Virus record (IMG/VR): IMGVR_UViG_3300046007_009360
DNA length: 64,000 nt
Direction: 5' to 3' (one strand)
Source of the DNA: an uncultured virus (IMG/VR IMGVR_UViG_3300046007_009360)
Taxonomy: Duplodnaviria > Heunggongvirae > Uroviricota > Caudoviricetes
Shown: piece by piece, positions 4,575 through 30,480 of the stretch
How the letters are laid out: every line of letters begins with the position of its first letter
How positions within the stretch are numbered: position 1 is the stretch's first letter
Translations under genes and position numbers: made by a program
The notes under the pieces: generated by a model
What the model was told of the DNA's origin: nothing
The model's database searches: none
What the model saw: only the letters and a program-made list of their open reading frames with translations

Positions 4575-4958
4575 ATGATTATTGATGATAGCGTCAGTTT
4601 CTTTGGCGTATATTATCATAATTGTGTTTTTCATTTAAATTTATCAAAAGAATTTTCTGATATTTACTCTAAAGAAAAATATAAAAATGTTCTTTTATGT
4701 CAAAAAGATGAACATAATGGCTATCTTTTAACTCAAAGTATAATGACCGATAAAAGCAAAAATCCTTATATGCAGAGTTATTATTACAGAGATAAAGAAG
4801 AATTAAAGAAAGGATTTAGGAAAATATCTGATAAGATAGAATCCTCAGAAAAAACATTTTATCTTTTAAGAAGTAATAAATATTATGATGTTGCAGATAC
4901 AGAAAATATTGTTAAGATATGGAAAAGAGAGGTAAAAAATGCCACCAAAGAAAATTAA
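4575..4958 (+). CDS. hypothetical protein
   Basis: ORF track. Confidence 0.6.
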   Translation: MIIDDSVSFFGVYYHNCVFHLNLSKEFSDIYSKEKYKNVLLCQKDEHNGYLLTQSIMTDKSKNPYMQSYYYRDKEELKKGFRKISDKIESSEKTFYLLRSNKYYDVADTENIVKIWKREVKNATKEN

Positions 4959-10230: not shown

Positions 10231-11154
10231 TATGAACCAACTATATGCTTATTTGTTTTTGTTTACTTTGATAGTCTCGGCGGCTATTCCTATTATTGGT
10301 TATATTAGGTCTAAATATTATTATATTGATACAAAGCCTATTCACTATTGGCTAAATAAGAAACAAAAAATAAAGAAAAGATATAAGACTTTTAAGAAGC
10401 GAAATAAGAAGTATTTGTCTGTAAATAAGATTAATAGAGTAGGATCTTATAATAAATTCAACTATTTAAGAAAGTGTAATAATATATTATGGAAAACATA
10501 AATCAAAGCAATAACGAATCAACTATCTCTGAGCCTTATTCAAATAGACACCTCGAAGATCCAAGAATCAATTTTTTAGAAAAATTAAATTCTATAGAAC
10601 AAATATTAAAAACCGCAGAAGCTAATGAGTCTAATGAAAATAAGAAGAAAGAAATTCAAGAAGCATTATCATTTATAGAACTTAGAAAAACTATAAGAAA
10701 ACAAAGAGAAGCTTCAGATCTAAATAATATTTAATTGACTAAACTAAATAAGTAAAATAAACTAATCTTATGAACCAAAATAACCTATCGTTAGAAGATT
10801 GGAGATTAATTCAAGATTGTATTGTAGACAAGATTTTTACTCTTAGAGCCAGAGACAACTTTAGTTACGAAGATGTGGTTGATCAATTGGAAATTGTTCT
10901 AGATAAGATTCGTGTGAAAGGATTAACACCAAGGGTTTAAATATATGATATCTATTATAACTGAAAAATTAATTGAAAGCTCTGAAATAAGAGTCTTAGG
11001 ATTAGCTTTGGTACTTTGGATATCGATGTATAGCACTTATTGGGTATGCGGTAAGTTGTTTGATTATAAGTGTGATATCTTTAATATCTTTAAGAAGAAA
11101 AAGAAAAGTCGCCGTAGGTCTTGACTAGGTTTTAGTTTGTGGTATGCTCTTCTT

Positions 11155-11655
11155 ATGAGCAAATCCAAAAAAATTAAATTACCAAAGATGGACGACATCT
11201 ATCAAAAGATCGCAGAAGAGCGTTTAACTAAAGGCGAAGCAGTCAAGCGTAATGCAAAAGCATTATTTGATTTCTTGCAAGAATCAAGAATATCTACTAT
11301 CAATGCAACATTTGATGGTTGTGGCGATAGTGGACAGATCAATAATGTAGAGTATCTTGACCATAGGGGCAAAGATATGACTACTCCAGTTGGCGAAGTT
11401 CCTAATTCACGACTAGAAGCTGGATACCAGTGGAACGATAAGAAGAAGAAGATGGAAGAAATGCCTCCTCGCCAAGGTTGTGTTGAAGAGCTTGTTCACG
11501 AGATATGCTATGATAAGTTAGGTTCAAAGCATATGGGTTGGGAGATCAACGAAGGTTCCTACGGCACATTCAGCTTTGATGTTCTTAATCGCAAGATTAG
11601 TCTTGAGTTTAATGAGCGTATCGAAAGCGTGAATACTACCGAGGAAACATTCTAA
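11155..11655 (+). CDS. DUF6878-like protein
   Basis: FDGCGDSGQI...GWEINEGSYGTF motifs; start moved to ATG 11155, 6 nt after the -10 box. Confidence 0.7.
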   Translation: MSKSKKIKLPKMDDIYQKIAEERLTKGEAVKRNAKALFDFLQESRISTINATFDGCGDSGQINNVEYLDHRGKDMTTPVGEVPNSRLEAGYQWNDKKKKMEEMPPRQGCVEELVHEICYDKLGSKHMGWEINEGSYGTFSFDVLNRKISLEFNERIESVNTTEETF

Positions 11656-12005
11656 TGGCTAATCCTTACCATCATTCTGTATCTTCAGCAAAGAAATGGG
11701 GAGGAACGCCCGAAGATTATCAGAAGATTCACGATTGGTTCGATGAATCAAAGATGATGATGGCAGACTTTAGACATCGTGCGTTGCGTCATCACGCCGA
11801 GGGCATCTTTATGTGTGAGAGGATATTTGGTCACACGATCACATTATCCAACGGCAAAAAGATTCCTACTCGCTGGATTGGCGAACAGCACGTTATTGAA
11901 GATTTGGGTCGTATTCCTTCGATGCAAGACTGGTTCAAACATATTATGCCCGAAAGTTGGATGGGCAAAACCAAGAAACTTGACATCGAACTAGAATTGG
12001 TCTAA
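11655..12005 (+). CDS. DUF6915-like protein
   Basis: MANPYHHSVSSAKKWGG...IHDWFDESK...RHRALRHHAEG...GEQHV.EDLG; usual partner of DUF6878. Confidence 0.8.
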   Translation: MANPYHHSVSSAKKWGGTPEDYQKIHDWFDESKMMMADFRHRALRHHAEGIFMCERIFGHTITLSNGKKIPTRWIGEQHVIEDLGRIPSMQDWFKHIMPESWMGKTKKLDIELELV

Positions 12006-12105
12006 AGTAGACAAAGATTTGTTGTGTGAGGTGATGGTGAGGTCATCGGTGGTCGCTTCCGTAATAAGCGAATCGTTTGGGGGTATCGTAAACCCTCGCC
12101 GTTTT

Positions 12106-12177
12106 TGCCTAATAGCTCAATGGTAGAGCGTACCGCTGTTAACGGTATGGTTATAGGTTCGAGTCCTATTTAGGCAG
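12106..12177 (+). tRNA. tRNA-Asn(GTT)
   Basis: TGCCTAA/TTAGGCA acceptor, anticodon arm TACCG-CTGTTAA-CGGTA, TTCGAGT T-loop. Confidence 0.95.
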
Positions 12178-12394
12178 AATAAAAAATATTTGTTCTACAA
12201 AATATTGTATTTGATGTATAATAGGTTGTATGAGCAAAAAACAATTCGAGGAGAACTTAAACTATGGCGATTGCAATAATATTTTCTGTTTTTTCGGTAA
12301 TCTTTTGGAGGGCGTGTGCGAGGGAGTAGAAAATACTATTATAGAAACTAAAAAGATAGTTGACAAGTCTCTAAAAAAATAATAATATATATAG

Positions 12395-12762
12395 ATACAG
12401 GGCAAACTCTCGGGTGCGAGAGGATGTAATGAAAGATATGTTGAGGTTGATCTCTTGATGGTCTTTCGTTCCCTGTATGTTCTTTGATATCAATGGGGGC
12501 TTAATTAAAGGGTTATCCAACCCAAACCAAGGAATAACATCGCCTCGTAATTGGCGAGCCGTGGATTGTCCCTCAAGAGAAAATGGTTGAACTAACCGAA
12601 TCACTATGGCGAGTCTAATCCTTTCGGGGCTCGATGCGTGTTAGGACGCTGAAATCCTAGTGGAAAGTTTTCCGCATTAGATCACAGATTGGATGTTGTT
12701 GCAAAGCGGAACCCTGCTACAGCCATATATCCTGTGAGCGTTTTTTGGTGTCGCCGAAACCA
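12395..12762 (+). ncRNA. candidate large structured non-coding RNA
   Basis: TTGACA(12360)-17 bp-TAATAT promoter; no credible + ORF; many nested helices with G-U pairs (see findings). Confidence 0.6.
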
Positions 12763-13032
12763 TATTTTTTTATTTTGAGATATAAATTATACGACATAAT
12801 CTACAAGCAACCAAATGGTATTATTAATGGTGTTTTACCAAATACTATTTATGTTGATTTAAGTAAATATCAAGCGGACAAAGGCTTTGGCAATTTGAAT
12901 TGTAGGGGTGGTCAAGCAATAAAAGATGTCACAGGATTCGAATGTGAAAGCTTCAAAGCATCATTGATAAGTCGTTATCCTGGAACAGATCATAGAGATT
13001 GACAAAATATAAATTTACCATATATTAATTGA

Positions 13033-13299
13033 ATGACTAAAACATTCAAGATTGGCGAGTATGCTGTTGGAGGAAAGATCAAGGTATCTATTCCTAAAAC
13101 CTTAACTACTATTAAAATAGATGTGCTTGATAGCAATTACGGCACAGGCAAATTGGTTAATCAATATATCTATTATAGCTTTGATAGGATTAGGATTGAG
13201 CGTGACCTTTGGCAGATTACTACTACTTATTATACTGATATGATTACTAGCTGGATTAACAAGAACTGGAAAGTAGAATTAATTAAAAATAGTATTTGA
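13033..13299 (+). CDS. hypothetical protein
   Basis: Own promoter TTGACA 12999 / TATATT 13021. Confidence 0.7.
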   Translation: MTKTFKIGEYAVGGKIKVSIPKTLTTIKIDVLDSNYGTGKLVNQYIYYSFDRIRIERDLWQITTTYYTDMITSWINKNWKVELIKNSI

Positions 13300-13329
13300 C
13301 TATATTAAAAAATACATTATAGTAGACCT

Positions 13330-13542
13330 ATGAGCGACACCTTAAAAAAATATACCATAACAATTCAACGAAACCAAATTGCCGAGGCTGAAATCGAAGT
13401 CGAGGCAGAGAGCCAAGGAGAAGCAGAAGAGATGGCCCTTAACAGGGCAGAAGATTGTGATGCTAACTTCGAGGAAGTGGATTATAACTTTGATATTATT
13501 CACATTGAAACCGATGAGGACGAAGAAGATGAAAACAGCTAG
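13330..13542 (+). CDS. DpnD/PcfM-like small protein
   Basis: KKYTITI...IEVEAESQGEAEEMA pattern; own promoter. Confidence 0.55.
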   Translation: MSDTLKKYTITIQRNQIAEAEIEVEAESQGEAEEMALNRAEDCDANFEEVDYNFDIIHIETDEDEEDENS

Positions 13543-13966
13543 AACTACCGAAGATATTATCAATAAAATCTATGATAGAATTGGTAGATGCACACAAGAA
13601 ATTGATAAGAAGTCAGCATGGCAAACCAAGATGTTACTTGGAATTCCTTTGGGCGAAAACGAAAAGCAGGAAGAGCCAAAAGAATTAGAAGCAGTAGTTA
13701 ACGAATTAGAAGATATTATAGATTGGATTGAAGGCAACGAGCCTAGAGAGGGTAGTCTATGGACTTCCGAGGAGTGGGCAAATGATTAAAATTATTACTG
13801 ATATTCTTATGTTAATTGCATTTGGCTTTGTTATTGTAGGATTAATATTGCCGTTTGTATGATCACAGGAGACACAATAGTTGCCTTTCTTATCATAACT
13901 TTCACGGCTATTTATATTTATCTTAATCATTATTGACAAAAATAGAATTTAATATAAGCTAAATAG

Positions 13967-14170
13967 ATGCACTACACTATTCAAAAAGTCATAAATAGAA
14001 ACCCTTATTTATTTGGCGGCGGTTACGAGCGTGGGGAGTATCTTGGCAAGCCAGTCTACATGGCTAAATATGATGGATGTCATCCCATAGAAACACTATA
14101 TTTCCCTAAATTAAAAGAATGCAAAGCTTGGTTAAATAAAATAAAAGCTACTTATACTAGGGTTAAATAA
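13967..14170 (+). CDS. hypothetical protein
   Basis: Own TTGACA promoter about 34 nt upstream. Confidence 0.6.
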   Translation: MHYTIQKVINRNPYLFGGGYERGEYLGKPVYMAKYDGCHPIETLYFPKLKECKAWLNKIKATYTRVK

Positions 14171-14617
14171 TGAAATACATTATACAAGTCACCAAATCTT
14201 GCTCTGCGACTCTTGAAGTAGAAGCAGAAACATTAGAGGAAGCAAAAGAGAAAGCTGATTATCTTAAATATAATATGAATTTAGATTGGAAATAACTATT
14301 GACTAAATAATAAATAGATGATATGGAAATACTAATACCTATTATTATTGGACTTATTATTGCAATAAAAGCCCCTTGACATAGAATTAATTTGTATTAT
14401 AGTTATCCTATGACCATAAACACATTTTACAAAACACACTGGAAGGACACATATTTAATTGTTCAAGAGCTTAAGGCTCGTATAATATCATTAGATAAGT
14501 TCAACAATCCTAAAGCGGTTCAAGTTAAAGAAGATCTCAAAGATTTACTATGCTGGATAACAGATAATCAAGTAGAATTTAATTGACACTAAATTAATTT
14601 GTATTATTATTGAGTTT

Positions 14618-16290: not shown

Positions 16291-16629
16291 GTGAAAGCAA
16301 AACACAAAGTCTATTATAACTTACATAAACATTGTTTGAGTATTATGCTTAAAGGCAAAGTCCTCCAACATAGCTCAGAGTTCTTTTTGAAAGATGTTGA
16401 GTTTCGTGTGAGTCAAGCTGGCAGAAACCGAGTCTTAAAAGAAAAGCGTAAGAATGTCCACGCTTTTGTGTGTGGCACACCAGACGAAGGTTGGCCTATT
16501 CATGGAGAGCGGCAAGTAACCTATAATCCCTATAAGTATCATAGTTTTGTTTATGCTGACACCAAGCGTCCTGTATATAAAGCTAAATGGGCTGGCGTTA
16601 TTGGTCGTGAAATTTTTGTCTTGAATTAA
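16291..16629 (+). CDS. conserved phage hypothetical protein
   Basis: KVYYNLHK...GRNRVLKEKRKNVHAFV...VTYNPYK; own promoter TTGACA 16256. Confidence 0.75.
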   Translation: MKAKHKVYYNLHKHCLSIMLKGKVLQHSSEFFLKDVEFRVSQAGRNRVLKEKRKNVHAFVCGTPDEGWPIHGERQVTYNPYKYHSFVYADTKRPVYKAKWAGVIGREIFVLN

Positions 16630-17621: not shown

Positions 17622-17715
17622 GCGAGGGTCGTCTAACTGGTTAAGACCCCACACTTATAATGTGGTCGCTCTAGATTTGGGCAAAATGCAGGTTCGAATC
17701 CTGCCCCTCGTACCA
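17622..17715 (+). tRNA. tRNA with TAT anticodon (nominally Ile) and long variable arm
   Basis: GCGAGGG/CCCTCGT acceptor, A73, encoded CCA, CCACA-CTTATAA-TGTGG anticodon arm, 22-nt variable region. Confidence 0.85.
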
Positions 17716-20393: not shown

Positions 20394-21233
20394 ATGAAAG
20401 TTAACGAAATCATCACAGAAAAATTCATTGAAGCCCTCAACAAAGGCGTTTGCCCTTGGCAGAAACCTTGGAAAGTTTTTGATCTTTGCAACGGCGTTTC
20501 CAAAAAGAATTATCGGGGCATCAATCAGTTTTTGCTTCGGATGGTTTCATCGGATGATTTTTTCTTTACCTTTAATCAGATTAAAGAACTTGGCGGAAAG
20601 ATCAAAACTGGGGCAAAGTCGCATATGGTAGTTTATTACAAACTATTGAAGTCTGAGAAAGACAATGAAACCAAAAGCTTTCCGATGATGCGTTATTACA
20701 GAGTCTTTGGTTTGAGCGATGTCGAGGGGCTAAAGTGGAAACAGCCCGAAGTTAAGAAGCTGGAATTTTCTCCAGTAGAAGAAGCAGAGAAGTTGATAAA
20801 CAAGTGCATTATCAAGATCAAGTATGGTGGAAGCCGTGCCTGCTATTACCCGCAGGAACATAAGATTGATCTGCCCGAGAAAGAAAACTTCAACAGCGTT
20901 GAGGAGTATTATTCCACAGCGTTTCACGAAATTGGTCACGCTATGCACAAGGCAACCAATGATGATATCAAAAATGGATTTGGTTCAGAGAATTATAGCA
21001 AAGAGGAATTGACCGCAGAGATTTTTGCGAGTCTTTGTCTTAACTTTTGTGGGATTGATTCTGAAAAATGTTTCAACAATTCTGCGAGCTATCTTTCGAG
21101 TTGGCTCCAAGTTTTGAAAAAAGATATGAACTTTATTATTTCGGCTTCGAGCAAAGCTCAAAAAAGATTTGACGCTTTCCTTGGTAAAAAAGAAACCGAA
21201 GAGATTCCAGAAGAAGAAACTGTAACTGCTTAA
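20394..21233 (+). CDS. ardC: ArdC-like antirestriction/ssDNA-binding protein with zincin domain
   Basis: PWQKPW...NYRGINQ...TFNQ...GGKI...YYSTAFHEIGH...YSKEELTAE. Confidence 0.9.
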   Translation: MKVNEIITEKFIEALNKGVCPWQKPWKVFDLCNGVSKKNYRGINQFLLRMVSSDDFFFTFNQIKELGGKIKTGAKSHMVVYYKLLKSEKDNETKSFPMMRYYRVFGLSDVEGLKWKQPEVKKLEFSPVEEAEKLINKCIIKIKYGGSRACYYPQEHKIDLPEKENFNSVEEYYSTAFHEIGHAMHKATNDDIKNGFGSENYSKEELTAEIFASLCLNFCGIDSEKCFNNSASYLSSWLQVLKKDMNFIISASSKAQKRFDAFLGKKETEEIPEEETVTA

Positions 21234-21345: not shown

Positions 21346-21981
21346 ATGTTCAAAAACAAAAAGCAAGCCGAAGCTATTGTCGGCACACTATCTAAACCCT
21401 CGAAGATGCCAGGTTATGCTTATTCAACGCCAGCGAAGCGTTGCATTATCGGGCAAAAAATGCGTCAGGTTGCGGGAAGCATTTGTGCTTTCTGCTATGC
21501 TCTTAAAGGGCGTTATGTTTTCCCCAATGTTCAAGCTGCGATGGAAAAGCGTTTTGCTTCTCTTACTCACGATCTTTGGGTGGATGCGATGACTTACCTT
21601 ATTGGTAAAGCAAACAACCCTCACTTCCGTTGGCACGATTCGGGAGATTTGCAAGGTATTTGGCATCTCGAAAAGATTGTCAAAGTTGCAAAGAATCTTC
21701 CGCATATTTCTTTTTGGTTGCCTACTCGTGAATACTCTTTCGTTTCAGAGTATATAGCCAAGGGCGGTGAAGTTCCTTTTAATCTTACCATCCGTCTCTC
21801 TGCTCTTATGATGAATGGCCCCGCACCGGTTGGGTTAGCAGAACGCCTTGGCCTTTGTGTTAGCGGTGCGAGCAACAAGGGAGAATTTAATTGCCCTTCA
21901 TCGAAACAAGGAAACAAGTGCGGTTCGTGCCGTGCATGCTGGCATAAGAATGAGTTTGCAATTAACTACAAAAAGCATTAA
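21346..21981 (+). CDS. Gp88-like Cys-rich phage protein
   Basis: SKMPG...C...ICAFCYA..GRY...FRWHDSGD...WLPTRE...CP...KCGSCRACW. Confidence 0.8.
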   Translation: MFKNKKQAEAIVGTLSKPSKMPGYAYSTPAKRCIIGQKMRQVAGSICAFCYALKGRYVFPNVQAAMEKRFASLTHDLWVDAMTYLIGKANNPHFRWHDSGDLQGIWHLEKIVKVAKNLPHISFWLPTREYSFVSEYIAKGGEVPFNLTIRLSALMMNGPAPVGLAERLGLCVSGASNKGEFNCPSSKQGNKCGSCRACWHKNEFAINYKKH

Positions 21982-29348: not shown

Positions 29349-29807
29349 ATGCTTAAAATATATTGTACAGAATGTGGTAATCCAACTACTTATACTTCCG
29401 CTAAACCTAAATTTTGTAGTTCATGCGGAACACCATTTGACAAGTTAATTGTTAATAAAGTTTTATTACAAAAACCTACAGCAGATCAACCAAAAACACC
29501 AAAAAGAATCTTACCAAAACTAGAAAGAAAAGCTGAAGTTGAAGATTATGATGACGAAAATGACGATGAATTTACAGATGTAAATCATGTTCCAAACATT
29601 GGTAGTCTAGATATAGAACTTCAAGAAAATCCTGTCCCTAAAAAAACAAAGATTGGAGATATTCTTGGAAGTGCAAAATCTGGAGCAAAAAGAGAAAAGA
29701 TAAAAGGAAAACCTTCAACGAAGACAGATCGCAAAAAGTTTCTAGAAGACTTCAAGAGAGAAGCTGGAGCAATTCGTCCATCCTCAAGAGGAAGACAAGA
29801 TGGCTAA
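29349..29807 (+). CDS. zinc-ribbon protein
   Basis: CTECG...FCSSCG. Confidence 0.7.
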   Translation: MLKIYCTECGNPTTYTSAKPKFCSSCGTPFDKLIVNKVLLQKPTADQPKTPKRILPKLERKAEVEDYDDENDDEFTDVNHVPNIGSLDIELQENPVPKKTKIGDILGSAKSGAKREKIKGKPSTKTDRKKFLEDFKREAGAIRPSSRGRQDG

Positions 29808-30480
29808 AAAGCCCTCATTCGAAAGCTTAATTGACGTAATAAATTCCGAAATAATTAAAAGAAAAAGTAAGTGGAATTTAACAGCGATAAACTGGATGGA
29901 TTTTAGTGATGTATCTCAGATACTAAGAATACATATTTATAAAAAATGGCATCTTTATGATCATAAAAAACCATTAGCCCCTTGGGTTAATCGTATTATC
30001 AGTAACCAAATTAAAAATTTAATAAGAAATAATTATAGTAATTTTACTCGCCCATGTCTTAAATGTGCAGCAGCAGAGAGCGAAGAAGGCTGTTCAATTT
30101 ACGGACAGCAATGTAATGCGTGTCCTCTATACGCTAATTGGGAAAGAAGTAAGAAAAGCGCGCACGATACAAAGTTGACACTTAGCATAGAGAATCACTC
30201 TCAAGAAATCAATGATATGCCAACTAATAATTTTAATATGGAAGAAACTGCTCAGAATATACATAAGAAGATGGAGAAAGTTTTAAAACCGATTGAATGG
30301 AAAGTTTATAAATATTTATATATTGAAGGTAAAGATGAAGAGCAAACTGCAAAATTAATGGGTTATAGAACAAGTGAGAAGAATAGAATTGCTGGATATA
30401 AACAAATTAAAAATATAAAAAAGATAATTATAGTTAAAGTAAAAAAACATTTATATAATGGCGATATAGATATTCATTAA
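29800..30480 (+). CDS. sigma70/ECF-like transcription factor with Cys-rich insertion
   Basis: Region-2-like DVSQILRIHIYKKWHLYD..KPLAPWVNRIISNQIKN; region-4-like LKPIEWKVYKYLYIEGKDEEQTAKLMG. Confidence 0.65.
   Translation: MAKKPSFESLIDVINSEIIKRKSKWNLTAINWMDFSDVSQILRIHIYKKWHLYDHKKPLAPWVNRIISNQIKNLIRNNYSNFTRPCLKCAAAESEEGCSIYGQQCNACPLYANWERSKKSAHDTKLTLSIENHSQEINDMPTNNFNMEETAQNIHKKMEKVLKPIEWKVYKYLYIEGKDEEQTAKLMGYRTSEKNRIAGYKQIKNIKKIIIVKVKKHLYNGDIDIH

What the first reader, a model, noticed from the sequence alone, without database searches (positions are those of the whole stretch)
12395..12762. Candidate ~370-nt highly structured ncRNA with its own promoter, near tRNA-Asn
Seen: TTGACA-17-TAATAT (12360-12388) points to a start near 12395. 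Domain 1 is a 3-way junction: ATACAGGG/CCCTGTAT, CTCTCG-GGTG-CGAGAG and AATGAAAGA/TCTTTCGTT. Further helices follow: GTTCTTTG/CAAGGAAT, GGGTT/AACCC, GCCGTGG/CTATGGC, GGTT/AACC, CGAGTC/GGCTCG, ATGCG/CGCAT enclosing TAGGA/TCCTA, and TCACAG/CTGTGA. G-U pairs favour the + strand and there is no credible + ORF. The 5' part ACAGGGCAAAC-hairpin-GGATGTAA resembles the GGCAAAC...GGACGCAA P2 segment of c-di-GMP-I riboswitches, but lacks the GNRA loop/receptor. Established: large phage ncRNAs such as GOLLD and ROOL occur next to tRNA genes. I cannot assign this one.
Basis: partly seen in the sequence, partly recalled or inferred. Interest (0 to 1): 0.78.

Follow-up and report, generated by a model that had tools for sequence, protein, structure and literature searches.

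The report
New structured RNA of lake phages
A group of large freshwater phages carries a small gene that makes an abundant, intricately folded RNA rather than a protein; it matches no known RNA family and its job is still unknown.

Summary
The finding holds. Window 12395-12762 (+) is a self-contained RNA gene. It has a sigma-70-type promoter (TTGACA-17-TAATAT), a structured transcript of about 368 nt, and a short hairpin ending in ACCA followed by a T tract.

I collected 99 further distinct full-length relatives from phage and lake metagenome contigs: 81 short forms of 186-193 nt and 18 longer forms of 254-409 nt. The window's form is a short form with a structured domain of about 190 nt inserted.

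Covariation supports a 5' three-way junction, a long bent 3' arm, a pseudoknot or kissing pairing with five compensatory states, and several helices in the inserted domain. On the 81 short forms, 40 pairs are 96% paired, 24 show changes on both sides, and 0 of 500 shuffles match this.

No Rfam family matches, including c-di-GMP-I. In two lake metatranscriptomes from different studies, the only contig laid on 3.5 kb lies inside the RNA. In a third, depth there is at least ten times that of the flanks.

The function is not shown. My best reading is a trans-acting folded RNA particle, possibly self-associating. An attenuator and a ligand-binding RNA are the main rivals.

The parts
12360..12388 (+). 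Promoter of the RNA: -35 TTGACA (12360-12365), 17-nt spacer, -10 TAATAT (12383-12388). It lies inside the 3' end of the upstream small ORF.
   Evidence: Among 99 distinct relatives, TTGAC is present in 99 of 99 and a 17-nt spacer plus TAnnAT in 97 of 99, while the spacer sequence varies.
12395..12762 (+). The RNA itself, long form, about 368 nt. The 5' end is predicted from the promoter. The 3' end is taken at the conserved ACCA before the T tract.
   Evidence: Homologs. Covariation. RNA contigs cover 12409-12735 and 12405-12662 with 0 differences.
12395..12478 (+). 5' domain, a three-way junction. P1 is 12395-12402 with 12471-12478. P2 is the hairpin 12403-12426, with an internal A.A/A.G mismatch and loop GGUG. 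J2/3 is UAAU (12427-12430). P3 is 12431-12467, with apical loop UUGAUC at 12447-12452. J3/1 is GUU (12468-12470).
   Evidence: (13 sequences): 24 pairs, 94.2% paired, 12 pairs changed on both sides. (81 sequences): P1 100%, P2 88.3% and P3 98.0% paired.
12479..12667 (+). Inserted domain, present only in long forms.
- P9: GGGGG 12495-12499 with CCCTC 12570-12574.
- Hairpin GGGTT 12510-12514 with AACCC 12519-12523.
- P7: CCAAGG 12527-12532 with CCGTGG 12559-12564, enclosing hairpin TCGCC 12540-12544 with GGCGA 12553-12557.
- Conserved single strand around GAACUAACCGAAU, about 12575-12601.
- P8: CACTA 12602-12606 with TAGTG 12658-12662. It encloses the variable hairpin 12610-12633 and hairpin GCGT 12636-12639 with ACGC 12646-12649.
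   Evidence: Alignment of 19 long forms. Helix tables over 18-27 long forms. The 81 short forms lack this domain.
12668..12676 (+). S1, UUUUCCGCA: the 5' strand of the pseudoknot or kissing pairing. UUCCGC (12670-12675) pairs with GCGGAA (12706-12711).
   Evidence: Partner classes among 88 distinct combinations: UUCCGCA:UGCGGRA, UUCCGUA:AGCGGAA, UUCCGUA:AACGGAA, UUCGCA:UGCGAA, UUCCUUA:UAAGGAA, UUCCACA:UGUGGAA.
12682..12737 (+). 3' arm. P5 is TCACAGAT 12682-12689 with ATCCTGTGA 12729-12737. A possible short helix is UGG 12690-12692 with CCA 12723-12725. P6 is 12695-12703 with 12715-12723. The loop AAGCGGAACCC lies at 12704-12714.
   Evidence: 15 pairs, 98.5% paired, 8 pairs changed on both sides, 0 of 500 shuffles as high; these helices (numbered 4 and 5 there) are 96.9% and 97.7% paired.
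12738..12771 (+). Conserved tail GCGUUUUUUGGUGUCGCNGAAACCA. It holds the weak hairpin UGGUGUC 12746-12752 with GAAACCA 12756-12762, followed by a T tract at 12765-12771. This is the probable intrinsic terminator.
   Evidence: The tail is invariant apart from 3 positions in the 13 members found without using this motif. A T-rich tract follows in 101 of 102 distinct contexts. The terminator scan did not call it.
12194..12382 (+). Companion small ORF (12230-12382, 50 aa, MSKKQFEENLNYGDC...) with its own promoter (12194-12222). The -10 ends 7 nt before the ATG, so the mRNA would be leaderless.
   Evidence: It stands upstream of the RNA in every member checked and was found in no other contig. Synonymous third-position changes are visible.

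Best explanation
Window 12395-12762 is an independent gene for a stable, abundant, highly structured non-coding RNA. It belongs to a previously undescribed family confined to one clade of large, AT-rich freshwater phages that carry tRNA genes.

**Shown**
- A conserved sigma-70-type promoter starts transcription at the first base pair of P1.
- The RNA folds into a 5' three-way junction (P1-P2-P3) and a long 3' arm (P5-P6).
- The loop of that arm pairs with a 7-nt segment (S1) just upstream of the arm.
- A short hairpin ending in ACCA plus a U tract closes the unit.
- The window's version carries an extra multi-helix domain of about 190 nt between the two conserved parts.
- The RNA far exceeds neighbouring genes in lake metatranscriptome assemblies.

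**Inferred**
It acts in trans as a folded particle, not as a coding, antisense or gene-specific leader element. The invariant junction and loop residues would then be contact surfaces.

My preferred mechanism, at roughly 0.2-0.25 on its own, is self-association through loop-loop pairing. Both kinds of P3 apical loop have a self-complementary core (GGCGCC, or GAUC/UGAUCA). The covarying S1:P6-loop pairing could equally be between molecules, as in ROOL, GOLLD and manA RNAs. The alternative for a trans-acting particle is capture of a host or phage protein or RNA.
For: **Family and structure**
- There are 13 distinct members beside one conserved neighbour gene. In all, there are 99 distinct full-length relatives of the window's copy.
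- On 81 short forms, 40 pairs are 96.0% paired and 24 pairs show changes on both sides. None of 500 shuffles reaches this, and slid controls give 45-59% paired.
- The 13-sequence sets give the same result.
- The pseudoknot has five compensatory states, including a matched one-base deletion on both sides.
- The insert helices covary.

**Transcription unit**
- The promoter is kept in 97-99 of 99 relatives while its spacer varies.
- A T tract follows the tail in 101 of 102 contexts.
- There is one copy per genome, including a 171,916-bp record rated 100% complete.

**Expression**
- In runs X3 and X9, from two different studies, the only contig laid on 11000-14500 lies inside the RNA. These are 12409-12735 and 12405-12662, each with 0 differences.
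- In run X5, contigs at 12504-12607 have depths 862 and 471. No flank bin exceeds a mean of 87 (0-87).

**Against a gene-specific leader**
The downstream neighbour varies between members: different ORFs, or tRNA-Asp.

**Precedent for the self-association reading**
- In ROOL, a kissing loop that covariation analysis had read as tertiary turned out to be between chains. ROOL and GOLLD are phage RNAs often found near tRNA islands (PMC12286853, passages read).
- RNAs under 200 nt, including the phage-associated manA motif, form multimers through kissing loops (preprint 10.64898/2026.07.01.735769, abstract and passages read).
Against: **Function and assembly**
- No function was tested. No partner protein stands out among 106 window ORFs scanned against Pfam.
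- Self-association rests on only two loop types and cannot be tested with these tools.
- P3 loops of the UUGAUC type also have possible partners within the same molecule: AUCAA in UUGAUAUCAA, and GAUCA before P5.

**Terminator**
- The terminal hairpin is weak (6 pairs with a mismatch) and the terminator scan did not call it.
- In some members the next gene or tRNA starts about 11 nt after ACCA with no room for a promoter. Read-through must therefore occur, which fits an attenuator as well.

**Ascertainment**
- The metagenome members were fetched with the tail motif, so the tail's invariance there is ascertainment.
- Members with a different tail would be missed. However, a 5'-domain pattern found none in viral contigs.

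**Expression data**
- The evidence comes from assembled contigs, which give neither transcript ends nor strand.
Confidence: 0.6

Rival explanations
1. The RNA is a cis-acting transcription attenuator or riboswitch. The folded RNA senses a ligand, protein or tRNA and sets how much transcription passes the ACCA hairpin and U tract into whatever lies downstream.
For: - The promoter abuts the structure.
- The terminal hairpin is weak and followed by a U tract.
- In several members the next ORF or a tRNA-Asp begins about 11 nt after ACCA, with no room for a promoter, so read-through is needed.
- AACCAUAU occurs twice, at 12721-12728 and 12758-12765. Either copy could pair with UUGGU at 12745-12749, which gives a possible alternative fold (read).
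Against: - The downstream genes differ between members, unlike known riboswitch classes.
- The alternative pairing is only 4 pairs and does not covary.
- The RNA accumulates alone in two metatranscriptome assemblies.
- No riboswitch or T-box model matches.
Confidence: 0.15
2. The 5' three-way junction is a divergent cyclic-dinucleotide aptamer of the c-di-GMP-I (GEMM-I) type.
For: - The order is the same: P1, GGCAAAC, a 6-pair hairpin, GGRUGYAAWG, P3, P1'.
- The junction residues GGCA, NAAN and GU are invariant or nearly so across the family.
Against: - RF01051 gives no match at E<=10 on 900 nt, on 98 nt, on 12 homolog loci, or on the near-identical 84.6-kb phage record G001.
- The P2 loops are GGUG, GUUG, AUUG or AAAU, not GNRA, and no receptor is evident. 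The tetraloop-receptor is a defining feature of the family according to PMC4744006 (introduction passages read).
Confidence: 0.05
3. The RNA is a base-pairing regulatory sRNA. A conserved single-stranded stretch pairs with host or phage mRNAs or tRNAs.
For: - It is a stand-alone promoter-to-terminator unit with a U-rich 3' end.
- It has invariant unpaired stretches (AUUGG, CCAUAUAU and the tail).
Against: - Most of the molecule is locked in covarying helices and a pseudoknot.
- At 188-409 nt it is large for a seed-type sRNA.
- No target could be sought because the host is unknown.
Confidence: 0.07
4. The extra 190 nt in the middle is a small self-splicing or mobile intron inserted in a short-form RNA gene.
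For: - It is present or absent at one fixed site between conserved flanks.
- The insert is itself a covarying multi-helix domain.
- One intermediate form of 254 nt exists (L177).
Against: - No group I or group II model matches.
- One RNA contig (X3, 12409-12735) spans both insert borders (about 12479 and 12668) and another (X9, 12405-12662) spans the 5' one; neither shows a junction, and no joints were reported.
- Expansion domains at fixed sites are usual in structured RNAs.
Confidence: 0.03
5. It is not an RNA gene at all, but a DNA-level element or an unrecognised small protein gene.
For: A 77-aa ORF lies on the - strand at 12371-12604, and the folding z-score is no better on + than on -.
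Against: - Compensatory changes and many G-U pairs are tolerated only on the + strand.
- The 81 short forms lack most of the region that ORF occupies.
- RNA-only enrichment is seen.
Confidence: 0.02

Closest known systems
GOLLD and ROOL RNAs (ornate phage and prophage ncRNAs)
   Same: - Phage-encoded, with its own transcription unit, next to tRNA genes, and of unknown function.
- Elaborate covarying structure with pseudoknots or kissing loops.
- A conserved 3' part with a more variable 5' and middle part, as described for GOLLD (PMC12286853, passages read).
   Different: - No sequence or model match.
- Much smaller: 188-409 nt against roughly 580 to over 800 nt.
- Different helices, and a coupled small ORF.
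- Multimer formation is not shown here.
manA RNA motif (cyanophage and Photobacterium)
   Same: A small phage-associated structured RNA. It was recently reported to build multimers through kissing loops (preprint 10.64898/2026.07.01.735769, abstract and passages read).
   Different: - No Rfam match.
- manA is described as a 5'-UTR element, whereas this RNA has its own promoter and terminator and variable downstream genes.
c-di-GMP-I riboswitch aptamer (GEMM-I, RF01051)
   Same: A three-helix junction with a short P2 hairpin, flanked by GGCAAAC and GGRUGYAAWG-like strings.
   Different: - It fails the covariance model.
- It has no GNRA loop or receptor.
- No conserved downstream gene.
- It is followed by a second large domain.
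Phage T4 stable RNAs of the tRNA region (species 1 and 2, rnaC/rnaD). Recalled, not looked up.
   Same: Small stable phage RNAs of unknown function encoded among tRNA genes and co-directional with them.
   Different: - No homology was tested.
- As I recall, the T4 RNAs are processed from a tRNA precursor, whereas this RNA has a conserved promoter of its own.
phi29 packaging RNA (pRNA). Recalled, apart from the Rfam scan.
   Same: About 170-190 nt, with a three-way junction core. A covarying loop-loop pairing in pRNA was first read as an intramolecular pseudoknot and is in fact intermolecular.
   Different: - No match to any Rfam model.
- The phage here is large (about 170 kb), with a T4-type terminase N-terminal domain, not a phi29-like podovirus.

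Membership tests
c-di-GMP-I riboswitch (RF01051) | Scores at or above the Rfam gathering cut-off (35 bits) with the family covariance model | tested here: not met
   No match even at E<=10. Tested on the window at 12150-13050, on 12388-12485 alone, on 12 homolog loci, and on the whole record G001, where 5 candidates were scored and 0 matched.
c-di-GMP-I riboswitch (RF01051) | Three-helix junction: P1 closing two adjacent hairpins, P2 and P3 | tested here: met
   P1, P2 and P3 are supported by covariation.
c-di-GMP-I riboswitch (RF01051) | GNRA tetraloop on P2 docking into a tetraloop receptor in P3 (feature as stated in PMC4744006, introduction) | tested here: not met
   The P2 loops are GGUG, GUUG, AUUG(C), AAAU or AUUU in 100 sequences. 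P3 is a plain helix with a large apical loop.
c-di-GMP-I riboswitch (RF01051) | Ligand-contacting junction residues (G20, A47 and C92 of Vc2) and binding of c-di-GMP | not testable with these tools
   Invariant G, AA and C residues exist at the junction. No residue-by-residue mapping or binding test was possible.
c-di-GMP-I riboswitch (RF01051) | Leader of a regulated downstream gene | tested here: not met
   The downstream neighbour differs among members: several unrelated ORFs, or tRNA-Asp.
GOLLD / ROOL | Match to the Rfam models | tested here: not met
   No hit at the gathering score on the whole window, nor at E<=10 on the region and on 12 homolog loci.
GOLLD / ROOL | Phage-encoded, near tRNA genes | tested here: met
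   tRNA-Asn ends 216 nt upstream. tRNAs flank the RNA in homolog loci.
GOLLD / ROOL | RNA-only homo-oligomeric cage | not testable with these tools
   Only indirect hints: self-complementary P3 loop cores, and a covarying loop pairing that could be between molecules.
Group I / group II intron (for the 190-nt insert) | Match to intron models and spliced junctions in RNA | tested here: not met
   No Rfam hit. An RNA contig spans both insert borders (12409-12735) and no joints were reported.
T-box leader | Match to the T-box model; specifier loop and T-box sequence | tested here: not met
   No Rfam hit at E<=10. The UGGU:ACCA pairing in the tail is only a loose analogy.
Stand-alone bacterial or phage sRNA gene (generic) | Own promoter, no conserved ORF, hairpin plus U tract at the end, discrete abundant transcript | tested here: met
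   Promoter. No conserved ORF. T tract in 101 of 102 contexts. RNA contigs confined to the unit. Transcript ends were not determined.

The most novel reading that the evidence does not exclude
The RNA is an aptamer without a gene to regulate. Its invariant three-way junction, which locally resembles the ligand pocket region of c-di-GMP-I, would bind a cyclic-dinucleotide-type signal. Made in large amounts early in infection, the RNA would soak that signal up. That would make it an RNA 'sponge' against host second-messenger or CBASS-type immune signalling, doing what only protein sponges are known to do.
Probability: 0.04. Interest if true: 0.95.

Novelty: new variant of a known kind. Interest (0 to 1): 0.68.

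Why it matters
New classes of large structured RNA backed by both strong covariation and expression evidence are uncommon. Several earlier ones (riboswitches, OLE, ROOL, GOLLD, manA) turned out to hold unexpected biochemistry.

This family has features that make it a practical target.
- It is compact: 188 nt in its minimal form.
- It has about a hundred natural variants.
- It has a covarying long-range loop pairing and a natural version with an added domain.
- It is among the most abundant phage transcripts in the lake metatranscriptome assemblies I looked at.

That makes it suitable for cryo-EM, ligand screens and pull-downs. It is also a marker of active infection by an uncultured clade of large freshwater phages.

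Tried and rejected
**Searches that found nothing**
- Rfam at gathering and at E<=10 on the window, the region, the 98-nt 5' domain and 12 homolog loci returned only tRNAs and noise.
- RF01051 on G001 gave nothing.
- blastn of 12300-12850 against 50,697 GenBank phage records gave no match.
- An exact-motif scan of 185,579 prokaryote genomes gave 0 matches.
- Covariance model R1 over 56 sources, including the more distant loci L023-L064, hit only the 13 known members.
- A 5'-domain pattern in viral contigs gave 25 loci. Ten are known members and 15 are chance matches in unrelated sequence.
- Relatives of the small ORF occur only in the same contigs.

**Sources that were closed or unreadable**
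- The window's own assembly is not held.
- In Fremin et al. 2023 (PMC10690425), supplement files 3-6 hold no match to the tail motif or to the contig ids. The two zip files of alignments and three further files could not be read. The RNA may therefore be among their 10,006 candidates without my seeing it.
- Two literature searches for a described freshwater phage ncRNA of this kind found none.

**Readings I dropped**
- A P4 hairpin in short forms (UUGAUUU/AAAUCAA) overlaps P5 and does not covary.
- Pairing of S1 with the tail (UUUCCGC with GCNGAAA) fails because the tail does not follow S1 changes (read).
- An SD-AUG reading of AAGGAUUGGAUG fails because the AUG is not conserved (CUG, UUG, or deleted).
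- GGA motifs are not enriched. This is my own count.

**Other**
- Run X2 laid nothing on 12287-12754 at 90% likeness. I draw no conclusion from that.
- No complex prediction or structure prediction was run, because those tools take proteins only.
Full report
**What is there**

The window is part of a large, AT-rich phage genome.
- All large ORFs lie on the + strand.
- It carries seven tRNA genes.
- Its terminase is at most 26% identical to that of any cultured phage.
- The closest held record, G001, is 100% identical over the region.

The stretch 12395-12762 has no credible ORF. The + strand holds only 37-aa and 29-aa ORFs, and the - strand a 77-aa ORF. Its G+C is 0.43-0.48, against 0.29-0.35 in the immediate flanks. 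A promoter-like site, TTGACA-17-TAATAT, ends at 12388. Folding energy alone does not decide: the z-score is -1.86 on + and -2.34 on -.

**Known families**

No Rfam 15 family matches. I tested at the gathering score on the whole window and at E<=10 on 12150-13050. I also tested 12388-12485 alone and 12 homolog loci. Only tRNAs and noise came back. The c-di-GMP-I model RF01051 also gives nothing at E<=10 on the whole record G001, where 5 candidates were scored.

**Relatives**

Using the conserved upstream gene (a DUF6915 protein, 11655-12005), I fetched 60 related phage loci. nhmmer with the window's RNA found two kinds of homolog.
- Full-length homologs occur in L013, L022, L009 and L008.
- In L010-L012, L014 and L016-L021, only the first ~85 nt and/or the last ~95 nt match. 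Where both matched, as in L010-L012 and L018, they lie directly adjacent.

Reading these loci shows two size classes. The short form is about 188 nt. The long form carries about 185-190 extra nucleotides at one fixed point.

The more distant loci L023-L064 have no copy detectable by covariance model R1. An exact scan for the conserved tail motif gave three results.
- In viral contigs it found the same contigs plus one fragment.
- In 185,579 prokaryote genomes it found nothing.

After removing duplicates, there are 99 distinct full-length sequences besides the window's own. Of these, 81 are 186-193 nt and 18 are 254-409 nt. There is one copy per genome, including one hit in a 171,916-bp record rated 100% complete.

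**Secondary structure**

The 5' domain is a three-way junction. On 13 sequences, 24 pairs are 94.2% paired and 12 pairs change on both sides. None of 500 shuffles reaches this, and slid controls give 45-62% paired.

The 3' arm (P5 and P6) has 15 pairs, 98.5% paired, with 8 pairs changed on both sides. Again 0 of 500 shuffles match, and slid controls give 30-48%.

On the 81 short forms, 40 pairs are 96.0% paired and 24 pairs change on both sides. None of 500 shuffles is as high, and slid controls give 45-59%. Frequent G-U pairs would be A-C mismatches on the other strand, which fixes the + strand as the transcribed one.

P2 is mostly invariant. It contains a conserved non-canonical step, A.G with either A.A or C-G.

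**A long-range pairing**

A 7-nt segment (S1, UUUCCGCA at 12668-12676) lies just 5' of P5 and is complementary to the P6 loop. Across 88 distinct S1 and P6 combinations the two sides change together.

| S1 | P6 loop | Count |
|---|---|---|
| UUCCGCA | UGCGGGA | 27 |
| UUCCGCA | UGCGGAA | 9 |
| UUCCGCA | AGCGGAA | 9 |
| UUCCGUA | AGCGGAA | 17 |
| UUCCGUA | AACGGAA | 1 |
| UUCGCA | UGCGAA | 12 |
| UUCCUUA | UAAGGAA | 2 |
| UUCCACA | UGUGGAA | 4-5 |

The UUCGCA:UGCGAA class has one base deleted on each side.

The linker from S1 to P5 is only 4-6 nt, while the arm is about 20 pairs long. An intramolecular pairing therefore needs the arm to fold back on itself at its two bulges. This geometric argument is my inference. 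The pairing could instead be between molecules, and covariation cannot tell these apart.

**The inserted domain**

This domain spans window 12479-12667. The alignment of 19 long forms and anchor-based tables support the following helices.
- **P9:** GGGGG/CCCTC. Its fifth pair is seen as G-C, C-G, A-U and U-A.
- **Hairpin:** GGGTT/AACCC, alternating with AGGTT/AACCT.
- **P7:** seen in five complementary versions. These are CCAAGG/CCGTGG, AGCGAAA/TTTCGCT, TTGGGC/GCTCAA, GCAGGA/TCCTGC and GCAAAA/TTTTGC.
- **Inner hairpin:** TCGCC/GGCGA, or CTTTGCG/CGCAAAG.
- **P8:** CACTA/TAGTG, CATTGG/CCAATG, or CATTAG/CTAATG.
- **Small hairpin:** GCGT/ACGC, GTGC/GCAC, or GCAC/GTGC.
- **Variable hairpin:** present in some members and absent in others.

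Five should be replaced: GTTCTTTG/CAAGGAAT, GCCGTGG/CTATGGC, GGTT/AACC, ATGCG/CGCAT and TAGGA/TCCTA.

**Transcription unit**
- TTGAC is present in 99 of 99 relatives. A 17-nt spacer plus TAnnAT is present in 97 of 99, with TAATAT in 80, while the spacer sequence varies.
- The RNA ends in the conserved string GAGCGUUUNUUGGUNUCGCNGAAACCA. This can form a weak hairpin, UGGUGUC/GAAACCA.
- A T-rich tract follows in 101 of 102 distinct contexts.
- The tail's invariance in the metagenome set is by construction, since that motif was the search pattern. It does hold in the 13 members found through the neighbour gene.
- In some members the next ORF or a tRNA-Asp begins about 11 nt after ACCA, so some read-through must occur.

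**Expression**

The run search listed 16 runs holding 5-11% of the sampled words of 11000-14500. That share is about the size of the RNA. All but one are labelled lake water or freshwater metagenome, and one is marine.

I laid four runs recorded as RNA, each from a different study.
- In X3 the only contig on the 3.5 kb is 12409-12735, with 0 differences.
- In X9 the only contig is 12405-12662, with 0 differences.
- In X5, contigs at 12504-12607 have depths 862 and 471. No flank bin exceeds a mean of 87 (0-87).
- X2 covers flanking genes of a relative but not the RNA region. I draw nothing from that.

These are assembled contigs, so transcript ends and strand are not shown. DNA carry-over cannot explain a signal confined to the RNA. 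No joints were reported, and the X3 contig spans both borders of the insert. That argues against splicing of the insert.

**Context**

A 50-aa ORF (12230-12382, MSKKQFEENLNYGDC...) stands upstream of the RNA in every member I checked and occurs nowhere else in viral contigs. It has its own conserved promoter. Its third-codon positions vary synonymously. The RNA's promoter lies inside its 3' end.

Of 106 window ORFs scanned against Pfam, none is an obvious RNA-binding partner. The hits include DUF6878, DUF6915, mycobacteriophage L5 gp82 and GP88 families, an ArdC-like protein, PhoH, MazG and a sigma-70 region 2 protein. The host is unknown.

**How it most likely works**

The following is shown: a conserved promoter-to-terminator unit, a compact covarying fold with a long-range loop pairing, an optional structured domain, and high abundance.

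The rest is inferred.
- Downstream genes differ between members, so a gene-specific leader is unlikely.
- Nearly the whole molecule is helical or tertiary-paired, so a seed-type antisense RNA is unlikely.
- I therefore read it as a trans-acting folded particle (confidence 0.6).
- Within that reading, my preferred mechanism is self-association through loops, at about 0.2-0.25.

The case for self-association has three parts.
- The P3 apical loop comes in only two kinds, and both have a self-complementary core. These are GGCGCC, and GAUC extended to UGAUCA in some members.
- Long forms carry a 10-nt self-complementary string, UUGAUAUCAA. It becomes UUUGAUCAAA in L128, and in L120 only the 8-nt UUGAUCAA stays self-complementary, so a 2-nt deletion keeps the symmetry.
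- The S1:P6-loop pairing may be intermolecular.

There are published precedents. In ROOL, a kissing loop that covariation analysis had read as tertiary is in fact quaternary, and ROOL and GOLLD are phage RNAs often found near tRNA islands (PMC12286853, passages read). RNAs under 200 nt, including the phage-associated manA motif, form multimers through kissing loops (preprint 10.64898/2026.07.01.735769, abstract and passages read).

This rests on two loop types only and is untested. P3 loops of the UUGAUC type also have possible partners within the same molecule.

**Comparison with c-di-GMP-I**

The architecture is shared: P1, P2 and P3 around a junction.

The family's defining features, as stated in PMC4744006 (introduction passages read), are two adjacent stem-loops, a tetraloop and tetraloop receptor, a P1 stem, and ligand contacts at the junction. 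The covariance model and the tetraloop-receptor tests are not met, so this RNA is not a member. Whether the junction binds a ligand remains open.

**Novelty**

I found no description of this RNA in Rfam 15, in 50,697 GenBank phage records, or in two literature searches. The large 2023 catalogue of viral candidate RNAs could be checked only in part. I rate it a new family within the known kind of orphan structured phage ncRNAs.

Noticed in passing
window 12194-12382: A conserved 50-aa ORF (MSKKQFEENLNYGDC...) has its own promoter, whose -10 ends 7 nt before the ATG, so the mRNA is probably leaderless. It is always coupled to the RNA gene, and the RNA's promoter lies within its 3' end. The N-terminal 15 residues are conserved and the rest is variable. 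It has no Pfam or PHROG match.
   Followed up: partly
window 12019-12104: A second conserved structured element lies between the DUF6915 gene and tRNA-Asn. It has three hairpins with compensatory changes among 13 distinct sequences; the last is followed by a U run. It contains an extended Shine-Dalgarno-like GAGGUGAU that is partly sequestered in the first hairpin.
   Followed up: partly
L011 about 4835-4920 and L014 about 4800-4890: In these relatives a tRNA-Asp(GTC) gene starts about 11 nt after the RNA's ACCA and T tract, with no room for a promoter. The tRNA must be made by read-through from the RNA's promoter or from further upstream.
   Followed up: no
L177:292-545 (-): This is an intermediate-size member of 254 nt. 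Its short insert keeps only a helix AAGGUAG/CUACCUU. That helix aligns with GGUUR and CUAACC of the long forms, which hints at a long-range pairing competing with the local GGGUU/AACCC hairpin.
   Followed up: partly
alignments A6 and A7 (loci L008-L202): RNA variants look mosaic. 5'-domain types, P3 loop types, S1/P6 classes and presence of the insert occur in different combinations, as if recombined at the conserved linkers.
   Followed up: no
window 17622-17715: The tRNA-Ile(TAT) called by ARAGORN is 94 nt long, well above the usual length. The Rfam tRNA hit scores 57.7 bits. It may carry an insertion or an intron.
   Followed up: no
window 20394-21230; 29800-30477; 16291-16626; 21346-21978: These encode an ArdC-like anti-restriction N-domain fused to a zincin metallopeptidase, a protein with sigma-70 region 2, and homologs of mycobacteriophage L5 gp82 and the GP88 family. 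Together they hint at an actinobacterial host.
   Followed up: no
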